13,401 nucleotides of DNA from a virus (Duplodnaviria; Heunggongvirae; Uroviricota; Caudoviricetes): the IMG/VR virus record IMGVR_UViG_2737471844_000004, positions 1 to 13,401 of that record. One strand, 5' to 3'. The notes beneath the pieces were generated by a model. It was not told where the DNA came from and ran no database searches. It saw only the letters and a list, made by a program, of their open reading frames with translations. This document shows positions 1-13,401 of the stretch, in pieces. How positions within the stretch are numbered: the stretch's first letter is position 1; every line of letters starts with the position of its first letter. A program made the translations under genes and the position numbers.

Positions 1-51
1 ATGTGTTGTAAAATCAGTCGAAGCCTAACAAGTGTGAATGACCTTTTAACC

Positions 52-762
52 ATGACGCAAGTGTTCAATGTTTACTGTGATGAGTCCTGCCATTTAGAAA
101 ATGATGGTCAAAAAGCAATGGTGCTCGGGGCTGTTTGGTGTCCTCTCAATAAGAGGTTTGGTATTGCTAATCGAATACGAGAGATAAAGCTCAAACATGG
201 CTTGGACCCACGTTTTGAAGTCAAATGGACTAAGGTTGGGGCTTCTAAAATTGAGTTTTATAAAGATTTGGTGGATTACTTCTTTGATGATGATGATCTT
301 CATTTCCGGGGATTGGTTATTCCTGACAAAACTCAGCTAAAGCATGATGATTTCGATCAAAGTCATGATGACTGGTACTATAAAATGTATTTTGTCATGT
401 TGAAAACTATTTTTGAGCCAGGAAGTCAATATAGAGTCTTTATTGATATAAAAGATACTCTTGGTCATGAGAAAATACTCAAGTTACATGATGTATTATG
501 TAACAATGCATATGATTTCTCTAGGAAAACAATTTCTAATATTAAGAGAATTAATTCTCATGAAGCTGAGCAATTGCAACTTGCTGATTTATTAATAGGT
601 GCCCTTAGTTATATGCATAGAGGTTTAAATGAAAGTAAGCCAAAACTTTTATTAATTAACAGGATCAGAGAAAGGAGCGGCTATAATCTAACCCAAAATA
701 CTTTGCTTCGAGAGTTAAAGTTTAATCTAATGATCTGGCAATCTAATGGGGGATGTCGATGA
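52..762 (+). CDS. DUF3800-like protein (family call from motif memory); start could instead be ATG at 1
   Basis: ORF 1..762; N-terminal MTQVFNVYCDES and later QLQLADLLIGALSY match the two motifs I recall for DUF3800 (N-terminal DES, C-terminal QxADxL). AT-rich. Stop TGA 760-762 overlaps next start (ATGA). Confidence 0.65.
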   Translation: MTQVFNVYCDESCHLENDGQKAMVLGAVWCPLNKRFGIANRIREIKLKHGLDPRFEVKWTKVGASKIEFYKDLVDYFFDDDDLHFRGLVIPDKTQLKHDDFDQSHDDWYYKMYFVMLKTIFEPGSQYRVFIDIKDTLGHEKILKLHDVLCNNAYDFSRKTISNIKRINSHEAEQLQLADLLIGALSYMHRGLNESKPKLLLINRIRERSGYNLTQNTLLRELKFNLMIWQSNGGCR

Positions 763-1244
763 GTCCGGTTTGGCTACCCGAGCAAATTTTATTAGAACAC
801 TATCAAGGTGAGTGGGAGGCCTACTTTGATAGTGTTTATCAAGCATTCCACCGCGATTTCGTTTTATCTAAACCAGTTTTTCGTGGCGTTCGATTAGGAT
901 TGAAACGTCATCCAGAATATGAAGGTAAATCAGCCACATTCTGGCATATGATTAGCACTGGAAATGTAGAAAGTGAGAGAGTGCCGGATATTCGGCGCTG
1001 CGAAAGAATTAGTTGGCCTAAGCCTGTTATAGATAATAGTACCGATACCTGTTTGAAAGTCTGGGCTGAGCCCAAAGGTAAAAATAGACGTATCCACATT
1101 TGGTTTGAGGATGAGGGATATCTGGTGGTTTTAGATGATAGAGGCGATTTTATGCTTCCATGGACAGCGTTTTATATTGAACATAACCATCAACGAAAGA
1201 AATACAATAAGAGATGGGAAAGACACAATCATAACGGTATTTGA
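759..1244 (+). CDS. Hypothetical protein, translationally coupled partner of the DUF3800-like gene
   Basis: ORF 753..1244; ATG at 759 has GGGGGA 6 nt upstream and overlaps the upstream stop. No recognisable motif. AT-rich like its partner. Confidence 0.6.
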   Translation: MSPVWLPEQILLEHYQGEWEAYFDSVYQAFHRDFVLSKPVFRGVRLGLKRHPEYEGKSATFWHMISTGNVESERVPDIRRCERISWPKPVIDNSTDTCLKVWAEPKGKNRRIHIWFEDEGYLVVLDDRGDFMLPWTAFYIEHNHQRKKYNKRWERHNHNGI

Positions 1245-5539: not shown

Positions 5540-7288
5540 TTATAAAAATTCCTCGGTTCTCTCCGTTTGTATAACGTTGGTTTGTATTCGTCCTTTAAAA
5601 CCTCTTGTCAGGTATTCAGCCCCATATTCTCTTGCTGCTGACTTCATGGCCTTACCAAAATCACCGACACTTAATATTTCTTCTTCCCCCATATACTCCA
5701 TAAAGGCGAGATATAGTCTGTACAGGCTTGTACGCGGATTAAGATCAGTTAATCTCTTACCGCCTCCCATCATCATCCCATGCGGTTCATCAAGAAATGC
5801 AAGCGCCGCACATAACCCAATGACAGGATCAGTTTCCTGTTTTATTTTCAGAGCTTCGGCACCGTCGCGCTGCTCCAACAATAATTCCCGTGCTTTTTCT
5901 GGATCGGAAAAGTTAGCCAGTAATCGACGAATAATGACAGGTATTTCCGCCGCTATCTTTTGCGGTAACTCTTTATCCTTTTCGGTCTCCCTTACAATAT
6001 TATCGAACCGAAAAATTACACGTCGACGCGCAACGCCTCCGGCCCGTTCGGTGAATGTCATCGGCACGTTATTTGTTGCCAGCACGACGGACCTGATAAT
6101 TGTTGTGAAACGCTTTTCATATTTCGGGTTAATTTCAACTGGATCTCCACCCGTTATTTTTTTGATGCCGGATCCTTCACCTGTATATTTCGGCTGGTCT
6201 GCCAGGACAATAAGACGACTTCCGACAACCTGCGCACGCCCGCCAGCATCATCAAGCGATGTCATTTCAGCGCTTACCGTGTTCTGTTTCCCTGCCAGAA
6301 GGGTGGCTATGTGCGTGATTGTGCTCTTGCCGCTCCCGCCTTCCCCTGTGGCCTCAATAAACATCTGCCAGTCGTACCGGTTCGCCATAATCATGTACAG
6401 CGCGGCGCATATACGCATCATCTTTCGCGGGTCTTTTCCTGCGGCGTGATCAAGCCATTTATGAAAGTTTGGCGCGTTGTCGCGGATGTTCTCCCCTGGT
6501 ACTGGTGGCGTGTACTCAATGCCGTTATGCGTGGTGATCCAGTTATCCGGCGAGTGCGGGGAAAATTCGCCAGTTTTCATGTCAAGCACGCCATTAGAGA
6601 ACGGCAATAAATCACCTGACGGTTCCCCCATTGGCCTGGCCATAACTTTTAAAGCATCCACAGCATTACTTATTGCTCTCCGACTAAACGATGTTCCGTT
6701 TTCTTCGTAAATAGCCACCATTTCACGACTAAGATCCAGTGTGCTTACCGGAACCCAAAAATCATCGCGCCAGACGTGGACAACCTCACTCTCCTGATTC
6801 ATTGCTACATCCTGAAATCGTTCAGCTAAAAGTTTTGCCCTTTGGCTGTCCGCCATTCTGGAAAGAGATATTTTGTGTTTTTTCTCGGTCCTTCCTGACA
6901 GAATTTCTCCGCGCTCAGCCTGTTCGCGGATCCGTTGCAGGTAGTCGCGCCAGTTCTCCGGTTCCTGGTCGGTGATGCCTTTGTATAATTTCGCCTCCTG
7001 TACGCCAGCCAGCGCCAGCTTTTCAGCGATAGTATTGATCTGGATTGGCTCTATCTCCCCCGCGATATAGACACGCGCAAAACGGCGTTTCTCGTCAATA
7101 ATGCGGATATTCGCCAGGTCTGCCAGTTGCTTTGGCCCCAGGTAAACAGGAGGCACGTTATCGCCGTGTTTTCGTCCTTCACTTTCAATCCAGTGTTGAG
7201 CATGGGCGTAAGCATCCGTCCCGGCAAAAATGATTACCTCAGTGAATTTATCCTTCGGCTGATATTTTAGACTCGGTGCGTTTTTCAC
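5540..7288 (-). CDS. Primase / SF3 (D5-like) helicase replication initiator, P4 alpha-like
   Basis: ORF 5540..7288, 582 aa. Walker A GEGGSGKST, Walker B-like LIVLAD, motif C VLATNN. GTG start overlaps upstream stop (GTGA) with GGGAGG 6 nt upstream. Confidence 0.85.
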   Translation of the reverse strand: MKNAPSLKYQPKDKFTEVIIFAGTDAYAHAQHWIESEGRKHGDNVPPVYLGPKQLADLANIRIIDEKRRFARVYIAGEIEPIQINTIAEKLALAGVQEAKLYKGITDQEPENWRDYLQRIREQAERGEILSGRTEKKHKISLSRMADSQRAKLLAERFQDVAMNQESEVVHVWRDDFWVPVSTLDLSREMVAIYEENGTSFSRRAISNAVDALKVMARPMGEPSGDLLPFSNGVLDMKTGEFSPHSPDNWITTHNGIEYTPPVPGENIRDNAPNFHKWLDHAAGKDPRKMMRICAALYMIMANRYDWQMFIEATGEGGSGKSTITHIATLLAGKQNTVSAEMTSLDDAGGRAQVVGSRLIVLADQPKYTGEGSGIKKITGGDPVEINPKYEKRFTTIIRSVVLATNNVPMTFTERAGGVARRRVIFRFDNIVRETEKDKELPQKIAAEIPVIIRRLLANFSDPEKARELLLEQRDGAEALKIKQETDPVIGLCAALAFLDEPHGMMMGGGKRLTDLNPRTSLYRLYLAFMEYMGEEEILSVGDFGKAMKSAAREYGAEYLTRGFKGRIQTNVIQTERTEEFL

Positions 7289-7575
7289 TTCTTACCTCCC
7301 GCAACCAACATTGCCCGGATTTTTTTTATATTCGTGGCTGCACGTCTCGCCACTGCCTGTTGTTTGTTTTCCACCAGAATAAAATCACGATCAAACTGAC
7401 GGCGCGGCATTACGCAGTCATATTCGTAAGCCTCACGGCGGTAGGTGATATTGCCTGGCGTAACGTGACGAATAACCACCCGTCCCCCGCGTCTGGTGTC
7501 CCGGAAAATATCACCGGGGCGGATTTCAGGCCGAGAGAGGCCGCTGGCAGTAAAGCCAGAATTTTTCTTTTTCAT
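7285..7575 (-). CDS. Hypothetical basic protein (96 aa)
   Basis: ORF 7285..7575; ATG 4 nt after the upstream stop; coupled to the primase gene. Confidence 0.6.
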   Translation of the reverse strand: MKKKNSGFTASGLSRPEIRPGDIFRDTRRGGRVVIRHVTPGNITYRREAYEYDCVMPRRQFDRDFILVENKQQAVARRAATNIKKIRAMLVAGGKK

Positions 7576-7579
7576 GGTT

Positions 7580-7780
7580 TTATTTTCCTGTCAGCAGTTC
7601 CGGTTTTATTTCCGCACGAATACAAAGTTCAGAAAAAAATTCAGGAGAACCAACAATCTCATTACTTTTCAGTCGGCATTGTGATTTCACTTTCCCTTTA
7701 TCCAGGTAAACCAGTACGCGTCCGGTGAAATCATCTGGCACATTAAGCACTACGGGTACATGCACTTCATGATTATGCAT
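7580..7780 (-). CDS. Small hypothetical protein (66 aa), FTGR-motif family
   Basis: ORF 7580..7780; GGAGGATG SD; start ATGCATAA overlaps upstream stop. Shares DDFTGRVLVYLDKGKV ... PEF motif with both halves of the 7999..8364 protein. Confidence 0.6.
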   Translation of the reverse strand: MHNHEVHVPVVLNVPDDFTGRVLVYLDKGKVKSQCRLKSNEIVGSPEFFSELCIRAEIKPELLTGK

Positions 7781-8006
7781 GGCTTACATCCTCCGTGAAT
7801 TTTCTTCTGTAACGCGCCTCTGCCACATATTCCGCATAGTCCGACGCAATACTAAGAATCATTTCACCCTCTGACTTGTAGCCACTGGTATTGATAAGAA
7901 AATATGCAGCTTTCATCATGTCAGCAACGCTCAACAATGCGCCCGATGTATCTTCCGGTGCGCCATCAAATTCCCGTTTCAGGGAATTAAAACGATCATC
8001 ACGCAT
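7773..8006 (-). CDS. Small hypothetical protein (77 aa)
   Basis: ORF 7773..8006; G-rich SD; start ATGCGTGA overlaps upstream stop by 8 nt. Confidence 0.6.
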   Translation of the reverse strand: MRDDRFNSLKREFDGAPEDTSGALLSVADMMKAAYFLINTSGYKSEGEMILSIASDYAEYVAEARYRRKFTEDVSHA

Positions 8007-8364
8007 GTTTACCCCCCTGAATGACCTGATAACCGCAACTGGTCAGCAACTCGATAAATTCCGGCAGTGTGCCGAAACAGCAATCATCACGCAGCCGTTC
8101 GCAGGATACCTCGACGCCGTTTTCGTAGTGACTCACCATACGTCCGGTAAAATGCAGATCATCATCGTGATGGCTCGTTGACGGCTTAATCAGTCGCGCA
8201 CGTTCCGCCAGTTCCAGCAATGCTTCAACGCTTCCGGCAATTGCACCATCCGGCAGGTGGTAATTACGCACTATGCGCCCGTTCTCCACATGGACCAGTA
8301 GCTGCCCGGTAAATTTCTCGTCAAACTGAATGCTGTTAAGGTCAGAAATTGACAGGTTATGCAT
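7999..8364 (-). CDS. Hypothetical protein with internal tandem duplication of an FTG(Q/R)-x-LV-x-x-E-N-G motif domain
   Basis: ORF 7999..8382; preferred start MHNLSIS at 8364 with AGGAGG upstream, overlapping the upstream stop (ATGCATAA). FTGQLLVHVENGRIV and FTGRMVSHYENGVEV repeat within the protein. Confidence 0.6.
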   Translation of the reverse strand: MHNLSISDLNSIQFDEKFTGQLLVHVENGRIVRNYHLPDGAIAGSVEALLELAERARLIKPSTSHHDDDLHFTGRMVSHYENGVEVSCERLRDDCCFGTLPEFIELLTSCGYQVIQGGKHA

Positions 8365-8581
8365 GGTGCACCTCCTGCACATCAGCCATGATAATTTTTC
8401 CGGCCTTATCCAGTGCCTGATCGGCTTTTAGCTGCACAAATGCTAAATAATGGGAGATGCATTCTGATTCTCTGGCTGCGTGTTTATGCGCCACACCAGC
8501 GATAGCAGAAATCTCAATAAGTGAATCCATCAGCGTTTTGATAGCGTCTACCGCTGCATCAGGCCATGTTGCATTACACAT
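8357..8581 (-). CDS. Small hypothetical protein (74 aa)
   Basis: ORF 8357..8581; AGGAGGTGG SD; start ATGTGTAA overlaps upstream stop by 8 nt. Confidence 0.6.
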   Translation of the reverse strand: MCNATWPDAAVDAIKTLMDSLIEISAIAGVAHKHAARESECISHYLAFVQLKADQALDKAGKIIMADVQEVHHA

Positions 8582-8939
8582 GTTCCACCTCCTGGCGAAT
8601 ACGGGCGGCGAATACCATCACGCAGCCATCAGGAGATTGCTGACGTGCTTCCTGTTCGCTGGTGGCCTCGATGTGAATTACGCGCGGTTGTGCCGTGCTC
8701 AGGGCGATAAAACGCCAGATAAAATTGTTCTCGCATTTCTGAATAAACAGCGTGTTTTCTTCGCGCCCTTTCCATGTTGCCGAGATATAGCCCATGTCAT
8801 TGAGCATCTCGCAGGCATCAACCAGCGTATCAGCAGCTACGTGTACAGTGTTTTTACCGTCAGCTATGCAATCACGGTGCACCGCCAGGAAGGTGTATAT
8901 AAATTTAGGGTGAGTTTGGGTATGCTGTGTTCCAGCCAT
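8574..8939 (-). CDS. Hypothetical protein (121 aa), first gene of the leftward operon
   Basis: Internal ATG (plus 8937-8939) of the long minus-strand open frame, with GAGGT 7 nt upstream and a promoter/operator region immediately 5'. Natural-looking sequence MAGTQHTQTHPKFIYTF... Confidence 0.6.
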   Translation of the reverse strand: MAGTQHTQTHPKFIYTFLAVHRDCIADGKNTVHVAADTLVDACEMLNDMGYISATWKGREENTLFIQKCENNFIWRFIALSTAQPRVIHIEATSEQEARQQSPDGCVMVFAARIRQEVEHV

Positions 8940-9028
8940 AATCGTTACCTCATTTAACGGTTTGGTTAGACGCCCCGCTACTGCCGCAAACAGTTCGGGG
9001 CGTTGTCGTTTACATCCTCTTACTGAGG

Positions 9029-9104
9029 TGTGATTTAAATTAAATTTAACTGAATCACAGGTCAAGTATTTTTTGTGATTCTTTTTTGTGTATACTGAAT
9101 CACA
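9029..9104. promoter_or_regulatory. Divergent promoter region with two TGTGATT-N17-AATCACA operator-like palindromes
   Basis: Palindromes at 9029-9059 and 9074-9104. Plus-strand -10-like TATACT at 9091-9096 lies inside the second; minus-strand -35 TTGACC (9060-9065) and -10 TAATTT (9037-9042) overlap the first. Confidence 0.55.
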
Positions 9105-9126
9105 TCTTTTGTTTAGGAGAATGCAC

Positions 9127-9432
9127 ATGGCAAAAAACACTATCAACGACAAATCAAAACAGATTTCAATTCGTATCCCACATGATGCTTTTGAAGGCAT
9201 GGAATCCGTAAAACTGGACGGTGAAAGCAACGCCGGATTCATAGTAACCGCCATGCGCGGTGAGATCGCCCGCCGCCAGGCAGAAGGAAGCGGAGAAAAT
9301 CCCCTGGTTTCTTCGCTCGATGCGCTGGCGCAGGTGGAAAAAATCGGAGTCAAAGCTGCCGAGGAGATCGGGCAGCTCGTCACCGTCGCACGTGAAGAAC
9401 TCCAGCGCCGCAAGGCCAAAGAATCAGAATAA
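9127..9432 (+). CDS. Small putative DNA-binding regulator (RHH-like); candidate island repressor
   Basis: ORF 9088..9432; ATG at 9127 with AGGAGA 6 nt upstream. Pattern ISIRIP (beta), HDAFEGMESVKL, NAGFIVTAMRGEIARR (helices). The only plus-strand gene in the backbone. Confidence 0.65.
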   Translation: MAKNTINDKSKQISIRIPHDAFEGMESVKLDGESNAGFIVTAMRGEIARRQAEGSGENPLVSSLDALAQVEKIGVKAAEEIGQLVTVAREELQRRKAKESE

Positions 9433-9667
9433 TAACTATCATCGCCGTGGTGTGAGGAACTCCGGCGCATTGCTTTACAGGTACACAGAATGACCAACAA
9501 AGAATCAACCAATACACCATCACCGGCACGGAAAAGACGGCGCAGAAAGATAGAGCACGAATCAGAAAGATTCGCGCCATGTGCTTTTGCCCTTGAGCAA
9601 TTCCTTAAAGAGTACAGGCGCACAAAAATGGGATCGCATACCTGGAAAACATCGCGGCATGGCAATG

Positions 9668-10106
9668 TTAAAGAGCATGAATAGCCCACCAGCAAGCCAG
9701 CACACTGATCACATTGCCCACCAGCCGCAAATCTGGCATTGTTGGCAATGTGTTCAAGTGTGTAGCTTTCCCACTGGTGGCCCTCTGCAGTCGCCTTTGT
9801 TTTATCCAGAACGAAATCAGACATCAGATTGATCAGCACCTGGTGACCTGACAAAATCGCATCAGTCACGCCACCAGCAAAATTTTTTGCTTTCCGGACA
9901 GCGTGGCCAACGGCATTTTGCAGCGAAATATTCTGCATTTCTGGCGTGCTGTAGTAACGGTGATCAGTGCCTTCACTCTGTGCGACCACAACGCTATAAT
10001 CTGCCTCGTAGACAGTAAGCAATATGGCGCAGTAGGCTATTCGTTCACAAAGGCGCTCCGGCAACGGGGCGCTTTCTCTTTTTGTAACGGTCAGAGCGTT
10101 ACACAT
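9668..10106 (-). CDS. Hypothetical ORF with well-defined 5' end but unresolved 3' end; possibly frameshifted
   Basis: ATG at 10106 overlaps the AntA-like stop by 8 nt (ATGTGTAA) and starts MCNA like the gene at 8581. First ~130 aa look protein-like, then Cys/Ser-rich junk; no in-frame stop until 8574. An alternate frame ends at plus 9668. Confidence 0.3.
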
Positions 10107-10899
10107 GGCTGTTTTCCTCCATGCGACGGGCTAACCAACGCTGCGAAAGGCGAATTAATTCAGCTTTCCGCTGGTGGTAGTCCTGGCCTAACTCAATCAG
10201 CGTGATATTGCTCTGCTCAAGGTAAGAAAGGTGCTCAAGCTGCAACACGCTCATGTGGTCGCGTGGTTCACCTGTAATGCCGTTCGCCTGCGCCCACTGT
10301 TTTGCAGTCATGCCACCCAGCACGATACGCGCCAGCATGTTCGCTTCCGTGGTGTAGTGGTGCTGGAGTGTGTTTTTACCCAGTTCAGCCCGGTACGCCT
10401 CCAGCGCGGCACACATTGGCTTAAAGTAGCTGGCAACTGTGATACGGGCTTTCAGTTCCCGGCGTAACGCTGCGGAACGTACAGGCGCAACCTTGTGTAG
10501 CTCCTCCTCGCATTTGATAAAGTACTGACGAACGGCGCGCCCCTGTTCGGTGCGCTCGACCATCGCCAGTTCTTTCGCCATGTTGATAGTGCTCAGGTAG
10601 TCGTGCTCTACACGTTGGCGAGATTTTGCGCTCACCGGATTGGGGGAGGTCAAATTTTCTACGAATTCAAAATCCACGCCCTTTTTAAATCCGTACTCAT
10701 CAATGCGTCCTTTAATCCAAGTTGTGAAATCACGCTTCACACCCAGCGCCTTATGCAACGCTCTGGCGCTAACAATATTGGTTTCACGCCCGCCAATAAC
10801 GCCGGAAATAACCGGGATAATTTCGCCGAAATTTTGTTGGCTCTGGTTTTCAGGCCGAACGAAGCCCTGCCCCTGTACGGGCGTTTTTCGCAGTTTCAT
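10099..10899 (-). CDS. AntA/AntB-type phage antirepressor-like protein
   Basis: ORF 10099..10899. IPVISGVIGGRETNIVSARALHKALGVKRDFTTWIKGRIDEYGF ... MAKELAMVERTEQGRAVRQYFIKCEEEL matches the AntA N-terminal pattern I recall. SD AGGAG 5 nt upstream. Confidence 0.6.
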   Translation of the reverse strand: MKLRKTPVQGQGFVRPENQSQQNFGEIIPVISGVIGGRETNIVSARALHKALGVKRDFTTWIKGRIDEYGFKKGVDFEFVENLTSPNPVSAKSRQRVEHDYLSTINMAKELAMVERTEQGRAVRQYFIKCEEELHKVAPVRSAALRRELKARITVASYFKPMCAALEAYRAELGKNTLQHHYTTEANMLARIVLGGMTAKQWAQANGITGEPRDHMSVLQLEHLSYLEQSNITLIELGQDYHQRKAELIRLSQRWLARRMEENSHV

Positions 10900-12147: not shown

Positions 12148-13401
12148 TTATTTATTAGATTGCGTGATGTCAGAACATATCATGTTTTCTAAATTCACCA
12201 GCAAATCAGTCCACTGTGCCAGCGCCGCTTTGCGCTCATCAAAATATTGATGGCGGTTATAAATGCCCTCTACGCCTTTTATGCGGTGGTTAAGGCATCG
12301 TTCAGCAACGATCGGGTCAACTCCCAATGCTGCTAAATGTGTTCGTGCTGTTCGCCGGAAGTCGTGAATTGTAAAGTTGGGGACGTTCGGCATTTCTGCT
12401 CTGACTTTTGCCAATGCAACAGGAAGGGTGCTTTCCTGGATGTGAGGGATCATTCTGTGCTGCATTTTTCTGGCAGGTAATACCCATGCGCTATTGCATG
12501 AAAATGTGTGCAATTCTCGCAACCATTCTATGGTCGCTGGTGGTAATGGTATGTCGATAGCATCGCCATTTTTAGTTCGTTGTTCTGGTAGATGCCAAAT
12601 CGCGCCATCTAAGTCGAATTCATCCCACCTGGCGGCGCATAACTCCATTTTTCTGACACACAATGCTAAGAGCAACTTAAAGGTTAATTCGTTCTGGCGG
12701 CTGAATCCTTTGGCTTTACGCATGGCCTGAAAAAATTGGATTAATTCGTCACGGTTCAGCCAGCGATCACGAGATAATTCTTTCCCACCAGCATCTGATA
12801 CTTCAAAAGCTGAGCAGGGGTTAACCTCCAAAGCAAGGCGTTTAATACCGTAGTCAAATATTCGACGTGTCCACCGAAGAACGTCAGTAGCAATTGTTGG
12901 AGCGCCTCTATCAACAATGCTTTTAAGCATGGCATCAATATGGCGTGGTTTTACATCTTCAACCTTCATGTGGCCTATGGCAGGATTTATGTCTTTATCA
13001 ATGCGCCTGCGGAGAATATCTGGGTGTTTCCATCGGGGAAGTATTTGCCGTGCAAAGTATTCGGCGGCAAGTTCAGAAACATGCAGCGCGTTTTTTTCAG
13101 CTTCTATTTTTGCCAGTGCTTCGGCTTTACGCTGCTGTTTTTCTGCGGCTACGTCATATCCCAAAGCAACTCGTGCGGAAAGTTCTTTTGCCAGTTCCCT
13201 GGCTTTTGATAACGATAATTCAGAATATGAACCAATAAGCATGGCACGAGATTTTCCTGCCAGTTTATATCGAAACCGCCATGTCGGGGATCTATCCACC
13301 TCTCTATACCGGAGATATAGCCCACCACCATCAGCACGACCTTCGAAATGTTCTCCGGCTTTTATCCATGCGCGGATCTGCATATCTGTGAGTTTTGGCA
13401 T
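12148..13401 (-). CDS. int: P4-type tyrosine integrase (site-specific recombinase)
   Basis: ORF 12148..13401, 417 aa. N-terminus MPKLTDMQIRAWIKAGEH...DGGGLYLRY and C-terminal HDFRRTARTHLAALG...ERCLNH...IYNRHQY carry the R...HxxR...Y catalytic signature. ATG sits exactly at the window edge. Confidence 0.95.
   Translation of the reverse strand: MPKLTDMQIRAWIKAGEHFEGRADGGGLYLRYREVDRSPTWRFRYKLAGKSRAMLIGSYSELSLSKARELAKELSARVALGYDVAAEKQQRKAEALAKIEAEKNALHVSELAAEYFARQILPRWKHPDILRRRIDKDINPAIGHMKVEDVKPRHIDAMLKSIVDRGAPTIATDVLRWTRRIFDYGIKRLALEVNPCSAFEVSDAGGKELSRDRWLNRDELIQFFQAMRKAKGFSRQNELTFKLLLALCVRKMELCAARWDEFDLDGAIWHLPEQRTKNGDAIDIPLPPATIEWLRELHTFSCNSAWVLPARKMQHRMIPHIQESTLPVALAKVRAEMPNVPNFTIHDFRRTARTHLAALGVDPIVAERCLNHRIKGVEGIYNRHQYFDERKAALAQWTDLLVNLENMICSDITQSNK

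What the first reader, a model, noticed from the sequence alone, without database searches (positions are those of the whole stretch)
7580..8939. Chain of five small genes joined by near-identical 8-nt start/stop overlaps, with a duplicated FTGR-motif domain
Each junction has the form ATG-YRT-RA (ATGTGTAA, ATGCATAA, ATGCGTGA, ATGCATAA), so every protein ends in His-Ala or His-Val and the next begins Met-Cys, Met-His or Met-Arg. Each also has its own SD. The 121-aa protein at 7999..8364 contains two copies of a motif (FTGQLLVHVENGRIV, FTGRMVSHYENGVEV) that recurs in the 66-aa protein (FTGRVLVYLDKGKV ... PEF). This suggests duplication within a tightly coupled operon feeding into the primase.
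Basis: seen in the sequence. Interest (0 to 1): 0.5.

Follow-up and report, generated by a model that had tools for sequence, protein, structure and literature searches.

The report
Overlapping small-gene cassettes in a phage satellite
The five small genes are real protein-coding cassettes in the replication operon of a common E. coli phage satellite, joined by the shortest possible "+1 frame" stop/start overlap, and one of them is an internal duplication of an uncharacterised prophage domain (Rem family); this is an ordinary kind of operon whose proteins still have no known function.

Summary
On the minus strand, five genes (8574-8939, 8357-8581, 7999-8364, 7773-8006, 7580-7780) are joined by four 8-nt overlaps, each with a Shine-Dalgarno motif 5-9 nt upstream. 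The chain continues into DUF4222 and a D5_N/DUF5906 primase-helicase.

The FTG motif is a real about 60-aa domain. It occurs twice in the 121-aa protein and once in the 66-aa protein (BLASTP E 9e-9 to 5e-4; PHROG 340). It belongs to the Rem family (Pfam PF27490, named after E. coli K-12 Qin prophage Rem). Its function is unknown and no fold match was found.

The window is an EcCIMP1-like phage-inducible chromosomal island at thrW. In 71 distinct related chains, the junctions upstream of DUF4222 are mostly 8-nt (156) or 11-nt (29) overlaps. One to five cassettes are gained, lost or recombined at these joints. dN/dS is 0.09-0.33.

Six of the eight junction bases are forced by geometry, so "near-identical" is overstated. 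Translational coupling is plausible but untested.

Two side observations:
- A G6 run before gene 4 is G5 (fusing genes 3 and 4) or G7 in a few genomes.
- A 161-601-codon stop-free frame runs from antA, antisense through ylcI, into the Icd-like gene. It shows no amino-acid constraint and is unexplained.

The parts
8574..8939 (-). Gene 1: Icd-like protein, 121 aa, first gene of the chain
   Evidence: NCBIfam NF033153 phage_ICD_like E 6e-23 on residues 73-116. [quoted passage not shown] Variable sites by codon position are 17/13/52.
8574..8581 (-). Joint J1: ATGTGTAA, with Shine-Dalgarno GGAGG at 8588-8592
   Evidence: Direct reading.
8357..8581 (-). Gene 2 (p2): 74 aa, function unknown
   Evidence: PHROG 5146 E 1.7e-48. 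dN/dS 0.33 vs L003. No match in Pfam, NCBIfam, PADLOC or PDB sequences.
8357..8364 (-). Joint J2: ATGCATAA, with Shine-Dalgarno GGAGG at 8371-8375
   Evidence: Direct reading. The same joint links Icd-like directly to p3 in L002, where p2 is missing.
7999..8364 (-). Gene 3 (p3): 121 aa, two tandem Rem-family domains (about 8182-8364 and 7999-8181)
   Evidence: PHROG 340 in two stretches, E 4e-30. Internal repeat E 6e-7. Secondary structure repeated twice in the model. dN/dS 0.09-0.20. PF27490 is recorded on homologues that are 79-82% identical.
8012..8017 (-). G6 run that serves as the Shine-Dalgarno motif of gene 4; its length sets whether genes 3 and 4 are separate or fused
   Evidence: G5 gives a fused 196-aa protein, G6 an 8-nt overlap, G7 a 2-nt gap. 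Among complete E. coli genomes with an exact junction match: G6 234, G7 9, G5 4.
7999..8006 (-). Joint J3: ATGCGTGA
   Evidence: Direct reading.
7773..8006 (-). Gene 4 (p4): 77 aa, function unknown
   Evidence: PHROG 24341 E 1.2e-47. 69 homologue clusters; every organism name shown is E. coli, and none has a Pfam family. dN/dS 0.18-0.20 at dS about 1.3.
7773..7780 (-). Joint J4: ATGCATAA, with Shine-Dalgarno GGAGG at 7790-7794
   Evidence: Direct reading.
7580..7780 (-). Gene 5 (p5): 66 aa, single Rem-family domain
   Evidence: PHROG 340 E 1.7e-20. AlphaFold pLDDT 88, beta-hairpin plus helix. A profile search finds 93 clusters. dN/dS 0.19 vs L011.
7285..7575 (-). DUF4222 gene, 96 aa, 4 nt after gene 5
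   Evidence: Pfam PF13973 E 3.9e-19.
5540..7288 (-). Primase-helicase-type replication protein, 582 aa, GTGA overlap with DUF4222
   Evidence: Pfam D5_N E 4.9e-13 and DUF5906 E 1.1e-9. TIGR01613 E 6.7e-30. PHROG 864 DNA primase E 1e-138.
10099..10106 (-). Fifth joint of the same form (CATGTGTAA, GGAGG 9 nt upstream) at the antA stop; it opens the long stop-free frame
   Evidence: Direct reading. The same start, MCNALTV, is present in 33 of 78 related viral-contig loci.
8940..10098 (-). Stop-free extension of the Icd-like frame, antisense to ylcI/ynfO (9127-9432 +) and to a 64-aa ORF (9490-9684 +)
   Evidence: See the noticed-in-passing list.

Best explanation
What it is. This is the early/replication operon of a phage satellite: a Gram-negative phage-inducible chromosomal island (PICI) of the EcCIMP1 type, integrated at tRNA-Thr thrW next to proA in E. 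coli. Between the Icd-like gene and the DUF4222-primase pair sits a variable array of small accessory-gene cassettes. This window has four:
- p2, 74 aa.
- p3, 121 aa, two Rem domains.
- p4, 77 aa.
- p5, 66 aa, one Rem domain.

Shown:
- All are genuine protein-coding genes under purifying selection.
- p3 is an old tandem duplication of the Rem-family domain, and p5 is a single-domain paralogue.
- The stop/start joints are the shortest possible phase +1 overlap (ATG-NN-T-R-A), each preceded by a Shine-Dalgarno motif inside the upstream gene. That geometry dictates the ...H-[AV] tails and the M-x-[ND] heads.
- The same joints recur throughout the family, including distant relatives. They are the points at which cassettes are present, absent or exchanged.

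Inferred mechanism:
- The seven genes are read from one mRNA that starts at the promoter region divergent from ylcI.
- A ribosome that terminates at one cassette re-initiates at the ATG 5 nt upstream of its stop codon, helped by the internal Shine-Dalgarno motif (termination-reinitiation).
- The cassettes, DUF4222 and the primase would then be made in a fixed order and proportion, and would depend on translation of the first cistron.
- The short conserved joints (Shine-Dalgarno, spacer, start, stop; 10-20 nt) also provide microhomology. This would let cassettes be precisely deleted or swapped while keeping the relay intact.

Function of the small proteins: not shown. My best guess is that they are protein-binding accessory factors acting with the Icd-like protein and the primase during satellite induction or interference with helper or competing phages. 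In the ECOR61 locus, whose reported gene lengths and overlaps match a chain type found here, transposon hits in the Icd-like gene and the two cassettes after it suppressed phage-gene-triggered cell death.
For: Element identity:
- 99.9% identity to E. coli JNU, with integrase, tRNA-Thr and proA flanking.
- AlpA, AntA, Icd-like, primase, ProQ/FinO and PerC genes are present.
- EcCIMP1 sits at the same site and has the same kind of overlapping small-gene chain (PMC11773190).

Coding status:
- dN/dS 0.09-0.33 at the largest divergences.
- 93 Rem-family clusters at 50% identity.
- p5 model pLDDT 88.
- The exact Icd-like protein is indexed in 1,682 collection blocks. The downstream gene lengths 74-121-77-66 recur in 7 of the 10 places shown.

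Duplication.

Rem family:
- PF27490 is recorded on close homologues. The family name 'Rem' appears.
- K-12 Rem vs the family profile: hhalign probability 95%, E 3.9e-8.

Joints conserved:
- 12 E. coli loci plus the more distant loci L013 and L014.
- 71 distinct chains from 78 viral-contig loci: 8-nt overlaps 156, 11-nt 29, other overlaps few. The 4-nt overlaps (68) are, in every chain listed, the DUF4222-primase junction.
- Residue 3 of Rem proteins is N, K or E in 36 of 44 sequences. That fits an overlapped TAA/TGA stop across the family.

Cassette exchange at joints:
- The L002 Icd-to-p3 joint equals the left half of J1 plus the right half of J2, across the shared CAGGAGGTG.
- Chains with 1 to 5 cassettes occur.
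- Chimeras and deletion derivatives between Rem copies occur.

Coupling plausibility: PMC6728339 and PMC10666635 show reinitiation at short overlaps in E. coli and count -8 among the coupling-competent distances.

Functional lead: Silas et al., bioRxiv 10.1101/2023.04.06.535777. The ECOR61 gene pattern of 61 aa (8-nt overlap) followed by 63 aa (1-nt overlap) is among the chains recovered here.
Against: - No experiment or expression data for this element. Coupling, the single transcript and all protein functions are inferred.
- PMC10666635 states that -8 overlaps reinitiate less efficiently than shorter overlaps. Each gene also has its own Shine-Dalgarno motif, so independent initiation could suffice.
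- No RNA structure sequesters the start sites (z-scores -1.2 to +0.2). The classical unfolding type of coupling is therefore not supported.
- The Rem domain has no detectable structural relative and no defence-family match. The functional guess rests on one related locus whose cassettes differ in length from these. Transposon effects there could also be polar.
- My start-codon choice in the 78-locus survey used Shine-Dalgarno score first and then proximity to the upstream stop. This may slightly favour short overlaps.
Confidence: 0.72

Rival explanations
1. The overlaps are only compaction or recombination scars. Each cassette is translated independently from its own Shine-Dalgarno motif, with no dependence on the upstream gene.
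For: - Every joint has a good Shine-Dalgarno motif at normal spacing.
- -8 overlaps are reported to reinitiate less well than -4 or -1 (PMC10666635).
- The G7 allele (2-nt gap) and joints with -1 to -6 nt gaps occur naturally without loss of the downstream gene.
Against: - The same phase +1 overlap persists over large divergence and with unrelated upstream genes.
- G6 is strongly predominant over G5 and G7: 234 vs 4 and 9 genomes.
- Distances from -8 to +10 nt are enriched for coupled pairs and complex subunits in E. coli.
Confidence: 0.2
2. The chain is one ancestral long gene broken by frameshift mutations, that is, a decaying pseudogene. Alternatively, it is read as a fusion by programmed +1 frameshifting at each stop.
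For: - Every joint shifts to the +1 frame.
- Natural fusions exist: p3+p4 at 196 aa and a p2-like protein plus p4 at 154 aa, the latter equal to PHROG 2512.
Against: - Each cassette has its own ATG and Shine-Dalgarno motif and occurs alone or in other orders.
- dN/dS is well below 1 in each gene.
- The fused p3+p4 allele is rare: 4 of about 247 exact matches.
- The last sense codons (GTG, GCA, GCG) cannot re-pair in the +1 frame. The Shine-Dalgarno motif also lies 11-15 nt before the stop, not the 3 nt of the prfB-type site (direct reading, compared with my own knowledge of prfB).
Confidence: 0.04
3. The small ORFs are chance reading frames and are not translated.
For: No Pfam or NCBIfam family in the local libraries for p2-p5. 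No solved-structure homologue by sequence for p2, p4 or the Rem profile.
Against: - Purifying selection.
- PHROG families with E values down to 1e-48.
- 93 diverged Rem clusters.
- A confident fold prediction.
- Transposon phenotypes in cassettes of the ECOR61 locus.
Confidence: 0.02
4. Together with the Icd-like protein and the primase, the cassettes form an abortive-infection or superinfection-exclusion device rather than replication accessories. A phage protein triggers the operon, and the Icd-like protein kills or arrests the cell.
For: Silas et al. report the following for ECOR61:
- Growth inhibition triggered by phage orf24 was suppressed by insertions in the Icd-like gene and the two cassettes downstream of it.
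- All six linked genes, including the primase, were needed to reconstitute the effect.

The ECOR61 gene-length and overlap pattern is among the chains recovered here.
Against: - The ECOR61 cassettes differ in length (61 and 63 aa).
- No PADLOC match for any chain protein.
- The reconstituted effect was described as muted.
- Insertions may be polar on downstream genes.
- This reading does not exclude a replication role.
Confidence: 0.25

Closest known systems
Gram-negative phage-inducible chromosomal islands (EcCIMP1, EcCICFT073, EcCIEDL933)
   Same: - Same integration site as EcCIMP1 (thrW next to proA).
- Same gene order: integrase, AlpA-type regulator, AntA antirepressor, Icd-like, a run of small overlapping hypothetical genes, primase, then a PerC-type regulator.
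   Different: - The EcCIMP1 small genes have different lengths and were not compared by sequence. Its joints are a mix of 4-, 8- and 14-nt overlaps. It has a TOPRIM/DUF927 primase and lacks the long stop-free frame.
- Helper dependence of the window element is untested.
E. coli K-12 Qin prophage protein Rem / Pfam PF27490 'Rem' / PHROG 340
   Same: The FTG-x-hairpin-helix domain of p3 (two copies) and p5 belongs to this family.
   Different: - K-12 Rem is 83 aa. It aligns only over 41 columns and only by profile comparison; BLASTP finds nothing.
- It is not in an overlapping chain.
- No family member has a known function.
Translational coupling by termination-reinitiation at short gene overlaps (Huber et al. 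2019, 2023)
   Same: Co-directional genes, an overlap within the -8 to +6 nt range, and a Shine-Dalgarno motif inside the upstream gene.
   Different: - The usual overlaps are -4 and -1. Here -8 (phase +1) is used almost exclusively, four or five times in a row.
- It is conserved as a cassette boundary.
- Coupling is not demonstrated here.
Phage P1 immI operon (c4 RNA, icd, ant) and the P4 immunity region. From my own knowledge: translation of the first small ORF controls transcription of downstream genes through polarity.
   Same: An Icd-like gene heads an operon of tightly linked genes in a P4/PICI-type element, and an AntA-type gene is nearby.
   Different: - No C4/CI-type RNA was detected at the gathering threshold or at E values up to 5.
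- antA lies upstream of the Icd-like gene here, not downstream.
- No evidence on Rho-dependent polarity.
Prophage cell-death locus of E. coli ECOR61 (Silas et al., bioRxiv 2023)
   Same: An Icd-like gene of the same length (366 nt) is followed by a small gene with an 8-nt overlap and further small genes, then a primase. These small genes give a phenotype when disrupted.
   Different: The cassettes are 61 and 63 aa, not 74/121/77/66. I could not obtain the ECOR61 sequence to compare it directly.
Mosaic gene-boundary exchange in lambdoid phages (from my own knowledge)
   Same: Short conserved sequences at start/stop junctions coincide with module boundaries.
   Different: Here the joint is a specific 8-nt overlap plus a Shine-Dalgarno motif in a satellite. 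The evidence for recombination at the joint is comparative only.

Membership tests
Rem family (Pfam PF27490 / PHROG 340) | Significant match to the family profile | tested here: met
   PHROG 340: p3 E 4e-30 in two stretches, p5 E 1.7e-20. K-12 Rem vs the family alignment A2: hhalign probability 95%, E 3.9e-8.
Rem family (Pfam PF27490 / PHROG 340) | Score above Pfam's own gathering threshold for PF27490 | not testable with these tools
   The model is absent from the local Pfam copy: homologues P0022 and P0023 give no hit locally. Only precomputed labels on those homologues are available.
Gram-negative phage-inducible chromosomal island | Tyrosine integrase at one end, next to a specific attachment site | tested here: met
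   Integrase ORF at 12148-13401. In the JNU locus it abuts tRNA-Thr and proA. EcCIMP1 is at the same site.
Gram-negative phage-inducible chromosomal island | AlpA-family regulator and a primase/replication module; size about 10-15 kb | tested here: met
   Phage_AlpA E 3.4e-8. D5_N/DUF5906 primase. The island spans about 13 kb in JNU.
Gram-negative phage-inducible chromosomal island | Excision, replication and packaging only on helper-phage induction | not testable with these tools
   Needs experiments. Shown for EcCIMP1 in PMC11773190.
Termination-reinitiation coupled gene pairs | Co-directional genes at -8 to +6 nt, with a Shine-Dalgarno motif upstream of the downstream start | tested here: met
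   Four -8 overlaps, one +4 gap and one -4 overlap, with a Shine-Dalgarno motif at each -8 and -4 overlap.
Termination-reinitiation coupled gene pairs | Downstream translation depends on upstream translation reaching the stop codon | not testable with these tools
   Requires reporter fusions or ribosome profiling.
P1/P4-type antisense-RNA immunity (C4/CI RNA upstream of icd) | C4-family RNA gene next to the icd-like gene | tested here: not met
   No Rfam match at gathering thresholds. Only chance-level matches at E values up to 5 in 8500-10200.
Programmed +1 frameshift site (prfB type) | A P-site codon able to re-pair in the +1 frame, and a Shine-Dalgarno-like element about 3 nt upstream of the shift site | tested here: not met
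   The codons before the stops are GTG, GCA, GCG and GCA. The Shine-Dalgarno motif lies 11-15 nt before the stop. The criteria come from my own knowledge.
Known anti-phage defence systems (PADLOC) | Match of a chain protein to a defence-system model | tested here: not met
   No match for Icd-like, p2-p5 or DUF4222. Only a weak mad3 match for the primase, E 0.0014.

The most novel reading that the evidence does not exclude
The chain may be part of a longer, uninterrupted relay of translation, about 4.6 kb, running from the antA stop (10099-10106) to the primase stop (5540). The link would be the stop-free frame that crosses ylcI and the divergent promoter region in antisense. That frame is kept open in 27 leader-region sequence clusters but shows no amino-acid constraint. 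It would act as a translated spacer: ribosome traffic, not its protein product, would carry expression (and protection from Rho) from the AlpA/AntA operon into the Icd-cassette-primase operon, through conserved CATGNNTAA joints. Replication and Icd toxicity would then depend on continuous translation.
Probability: 0.12. Interest if true: 0.65.

Novelty: new member of a known kind. Interest (0 to 1): 0.3.

Why it matters
- The Icd-like region matches 1,494 of 5,426 complete E. coli genomes. The p3-p4 junction is present in about 297 of them. These uncharacterised proteins are therefore common.
- The work places the FTG motif in a named family (Rem).
- It shows that the small genes are selected cassettes with conserved joints.
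- It links them to the one related locus with a phenotype, phage-triggered cell death in ECOR61.
- It gives concrete constructs for testing coupling and cassette function.
- The chain itself is a familiar type of satellite early operon, so the gain is annotation and testable hypotheses rather than a new principle.
- The long unconstrained open frame upstream is the item most worth a separate look.

Tried and rejected
- Rfam found nothing in the window at gathering thresholds. Only chance-level matches appeared at E values up to 5 around the Icd leader. A C4/CI-type antisense RNA is therefore not supported.
- The p3 model has low confidence (pLDDT 62). I used it only for secondary-structure order.
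- PDB sequence searches for the Rem profile, p2 and p4 gave nothing meaningful.
- PADLOC had no match for the chain proteins.
- RNA folding of 81 nt around each joint gave z-scores of -1.2 to +0.2. Structure-based occlusion of the start sites is not supported.
- The promoter and terminator scan gave only consensus-level matches, at about the shuffle expectation for promoters.
The single-protein scan of species-representative genomes returned only one locus.
- tblastn of p3 and p5 against 50,697 phage genomes gave no match. Against plasmids, p3 matched two records. The family appears confined to chromosomal islands.
- I first read the G5 fused allele as common, from cluster sizes. Several such contigs also have other broken genes. 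Complete genomes show it is rare: 4 vs 234. I therefore dropped regulated phase variation.
- A test for avoidance of stop-creating substitutions in the long frame is invalid. The sequences had been selected for being open. I rely on the unselected survey instead.
Full report
**Observation**

Reading the minus strand and translating the annotated frames confirms five genes joined by four 8-nt overlaps.

| Gene | Coordinates (minus strand) | Length |
|---|---|---|
| Icd-like | 8574-8939 | 121 aa |
| p2 | 8357-8581 | 74 aa |
| p3 | 7999-8364 | 121 aa |
| p4 | 7773-8006 | 77 aa |
| p5 | 7580-7780 | 66 aa |

| Joint | Sequence | Shine-Dalgarno motif | Spacer |
|---|---|---|---|
| J1 | ATGTGTAA | GGAGG | 6 nt |
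| J2 | ATGCATAA | GGAGG | 6 nt |
| J3 | ATGCGTGA | GGGGGG | 5 nt |
| J4 | ATGCATAA | GGAGG | 9 nt |

- The chain continues after a 4-nt gap into a DUF4222 gene (7285-7575).
- A GTGA overlap then leads into a 582-aa D5_N/DUF5906 primase-helicase gene (5540-7288).
- The stated protein ends (H-V, H-A) and starts (M-C, M-H, M-R) are correct.

**How much of the junction similarity is informative**

- An 8-nt overlap has to read ATG-NN-T-R-A. Six of the eight positions are fixed, and the downstream protein must start M-x-[N/K/D/E].
- The remaining shared features are a C before the ATG and CAGGAGGTG before J1 and J2. They are real but not invariant in relatives: TATG in L007, ATGGGTAA in L002, ATGCATGA in L034.
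- The unusual part is the repetition. PMC10666635 reports -4 as by far the commonest overlap in E. coli, followed by -1 and then -8. It counts 62 of 2,511 pairs at -8 in Haloferax volcanii, and all distances from -8 to +6 together make up 24% of E. coli pairs.
- Four in a row is therefore not a chance arrangement. The joints are not independent, however, because they are related cassette boundaries (see below).

**The repeated motif is a domain**

- BLASTP gives E 9e-9 for p5 against the first half of p3 and E 5e-4 against the second half. The two halves of p3 match each other at E 6e-7.
- PHROG 340 matches p3 in two stretches and p5 once.
- A profile of the copies finds 93 clusters (at 50% identity) among 1.84 billion representatives. 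Most are 60-90 aa proteins with the signature FTGR-[VIL]-L-V-x-[VL]-E-N-G ... F-x-E-L-A-x-x-A-G-[YW].
- AlphaFold models p5 confidently (pLDDT 88) as a beta-hairpin followed by a helix.
- The p3 model has lower confidence (pLDDT 62) but repeats the same strand-strand-strand-helix order twice.
- Two-domain relatives at only 19-42% identity exist, one of them next to an unrelated 288-aa gene. The duplication is therefore old.
- The collection labels close homologues with Pfam PF27490, named 'Rem'. This model is missing from the local Pfam copy.
- The K-12 Qin prophage protein Rem aligns to the family profile with hhalign probability 95%, E 3.9e-8.
- No solved or predicted viral structure resembles the domain.
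- tblastn of p3 and p5 finds nothing in 50,697 phage genomes. Against plasmids, p3 matches two records.

**Context**

- The window is 99.9% identical to a locus in E. coli JNU that lies between tRNA-Thr/proA and paoD.
- Gene content: integrase, a 260-aa protein, AlpA, AntA, a divergent YlcI/YnfO gene, the chain, the primase, ProQ/FinO-like, PerC-like, a DUF2213 protease-like protein and a TerS-like protein.
- This is the organisation of Gram-negative phage-inducible chromosomal islands.
- EcCIMP1 is experimentally shown to be helper-dependent (PMC11773190). It sits at the same site and also has a run of small overlapping genes between Icd-like and primase.

**The small genes are selected**

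- Nei-Gojobori dN/dS against the most divergent same-length orthologues is 0.33 for p2, 0.09-0.20 for p3, 0.18-0.20 for p4 (at dS about 1.3) and 0.19 for p5.
- p4 has 69 homologue clusters. Every organism name shown is E. coli, and no family name is attached.

**The joints are cassette boundaries**

- Twelve E. coli loci, ten places carrying the identical Icd-like protein and 78 viral-contig loci show one to five cassettes between Icd-like and DUF4222.
- In 71 distinct chains the junction counts are: 156 of 8 nt, 29 of 11 nt (an 8-nt joint whose TAA has become CAA), 68 of 4 nt and short gaps for the rest. In every chain listed, the 4-nt overlap is the DUF4222-primase junction and the gaps lie mostly before DUF4222. 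The caveat is that starts were chosen by Shine-Dalgarno score and then proximity to the upstream stop.
- In L002, p2 is missing. The Icd-to-p3 joint there is exactly the left half of J1 joined to the right half of J2 across the shared CAGGAGGTG.
- Relatives at 36-40% identity, L013 and L014, keep ...H-H-A*/M-[HR]-N joints behind unrelated upstream genes. L014 is probably from Salmonella; I infer this only from a neighbouring NEL/LRR gene in the related locus L015.
- In the family alignment, residue 3 is N in 29 of 44 sequences, K in 5 and E in 2. The background frequency of N is 5%. This is as expected if the overlapped TAA/TGA is a family-wide feature.
- Deletion derivatives and chimeras between the Rem copies are frequent.

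**The G run before p4**

- The Shine-Dalgarno motif of p4 is a G6 run (8012-8017).
- G5 fuses p3 and p4 into a 196-aa protein. G7 puts a TAA stop 2 nt before the ATG.
- In another upstream context, G7 gives a fused 154-aa protein (equal to PHROG 2512) and G9 gives a 28-nt overlap.
- Among complete E. coli genomes with an exact match to the junction, G6 is found in 234, G7 in 9 and G5 in 4.
- This is occasional homopolymer slippage against a favoured G6 state, not evident phase variation.
- Several draft contigs with G5 also have other broken genes. One finished genome, CP117668, has G5 with all other genes intact.

**Mechanism**

- Shown: the geometry, the Shine-Dalgarno motifs, conservation and selection.
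- Inferred: one transcript and ribosome hand-over by termination-reinitiation. Reporter work on short overlaps in E. coli supports this in general (PMC6728339, PMC10666635). The same work says -8 is less efficient than -4 or -1.
- No stable RNA structure covers the starts, so unfolding-type coupling is not indicated.
- No C4/CI-type RNA was found.

**Function**

- Function is unknown.
- The best lead is the ECOR61 prophage locus of Silas et al.. Insertions in a 366-nt Icd-like gene and in the two small genes after it (8-nt and 1-nt overlaps) suppressed cell death triggered by a phage accessory gene. All six linked genes, including the primase, were needed to reconstitute the effect.
- A chain with exactly this length and overlap pattern is in my survey.

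**Side observation: a long stop-free frame**

- The Icd-like frame is open for 510 codons from an ATG at 10106. That ATG overlaps the antA stop in a fifth CATGTGTAA joint.
- The frame runs antisense through a 64-aa ORF, through ylcI/ynfO (a genuine family, NF041551, E 3.7e-18) and through the divergent promoter region.
- In 78 unselected viral-contig loci the frame is open for 88-601 codons (median 340) upstream of the Icd domain. In the other two frames the first stop lies a median of 22 codons away (maximum 71). The leader region falls into 27 sequence clusters.
- Where it is not antisense to a plus-strand ORF, the frame shows no coding signature. dN/dS is 0.8-1.0 against four close relatives and 0.5-1.0 against the most divergent one, L009. 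Variable sites by codon position are 60/66/67, against 17/13/52 in the annotated Icd-like part.
- The frame is absent from EcCIMP1 and from L014.
- I cannot decide between a long, poorly constrained protein and selection for translation as such.

**Verdict**

The finding is real and correctly read. It is a member of a known kind: a compact, probably translationally coupled early operon of a phage satellite, with uncharacterised accessory cassettes and an old domain duplication. Interest is modest.

Noticed in passing
window 8574-10106 (minus strand); also L002-L012, L020, L022, L035-L114: - A stop-free frame of 510 codons starts at a fifth CATGTGTAA joint on the antA stop. It runs antisense through ylcI/ynfO and the divergent promoter region, and ends as the Icd-like protein.
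- In 78 related loci it is open for 88-601 codons upstream of the Icd domain (median 340). The control frames have a median of 22 and a maximum of 71. The loci fall into 27 leader-region sequence clusters.
- It shows no codon-position or dN/dS signature outside the parts antisense to plus-strand ORFs.
- Unexplained.
   Followed up: partly
window 8012-8017 (minus-strand G6): The homopolymer that serves as the Shine-Dalgarno motif of p4 varies in length. G5 fuses p3 and p4 (196 aa), and G7 ends p3 2 nt before the p4 start. Complete E. coli genomes with an exact junction match: G6 234, G7 9, G5 4. A second upstream context shows G7 (fused, 154 aa) vs G9.
   Followed up: yes
window 1-762 and 753-1244 (plus strand): Two overlapping genes match the PADLOC candidate defence pair PDC-M04A (E 8e-98) and PDC-M04B (E 9e-74). 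They form an accessory cargo module at the far end of the island.
   Followed up: no
window 8970-9104: Operator-like repeats lie in the region between the Icd-like gene and ylcI: ACTGAATCACA at 9049-9059 and 9094-9104, and the inverted copy TGTGATTC at 9074-9081. An 8-bp GC-rich hairpin (ACGCCCCG/CGGGGCGT, 8970-9003) lies in the Icd-like leader.
   Followed up: no
window 7285-7320; P0101, P0145; L013 1229-1381: The N-terminal peptide M-x-x-K-N-S-G-[FL]-[TI]-A-[SG]-G of DUF4222 proteins also heads some Rem-domain proteins. This suggests that 5' gene ends are exchanged between cassette types.
   Followed up: no
L007, L005, L026, L034 and others, downstream of DUF4222: The replication protein after DUF4222 varies between islands with near-identical cassette chains: 582-604-aa D5_N/DUF5906 primases, 466-470-aa RepA/AAA_25 helicases and 707-710-aa DUF927 proteins.
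   Followed up: no
L002 3432-4364, L009 3104-4036; L003 4097-4544, L004 4339-4572: RefSeq annotation is inconsistent for the region upstream of the Icd-like gene. Some genomes carry a 310-aa 'Icd-like protein'. Others carry YlcI/YnfO on the opposite strand plus 'Icd-like, incomplete' pseudogene fragments.
   Followed up: partly
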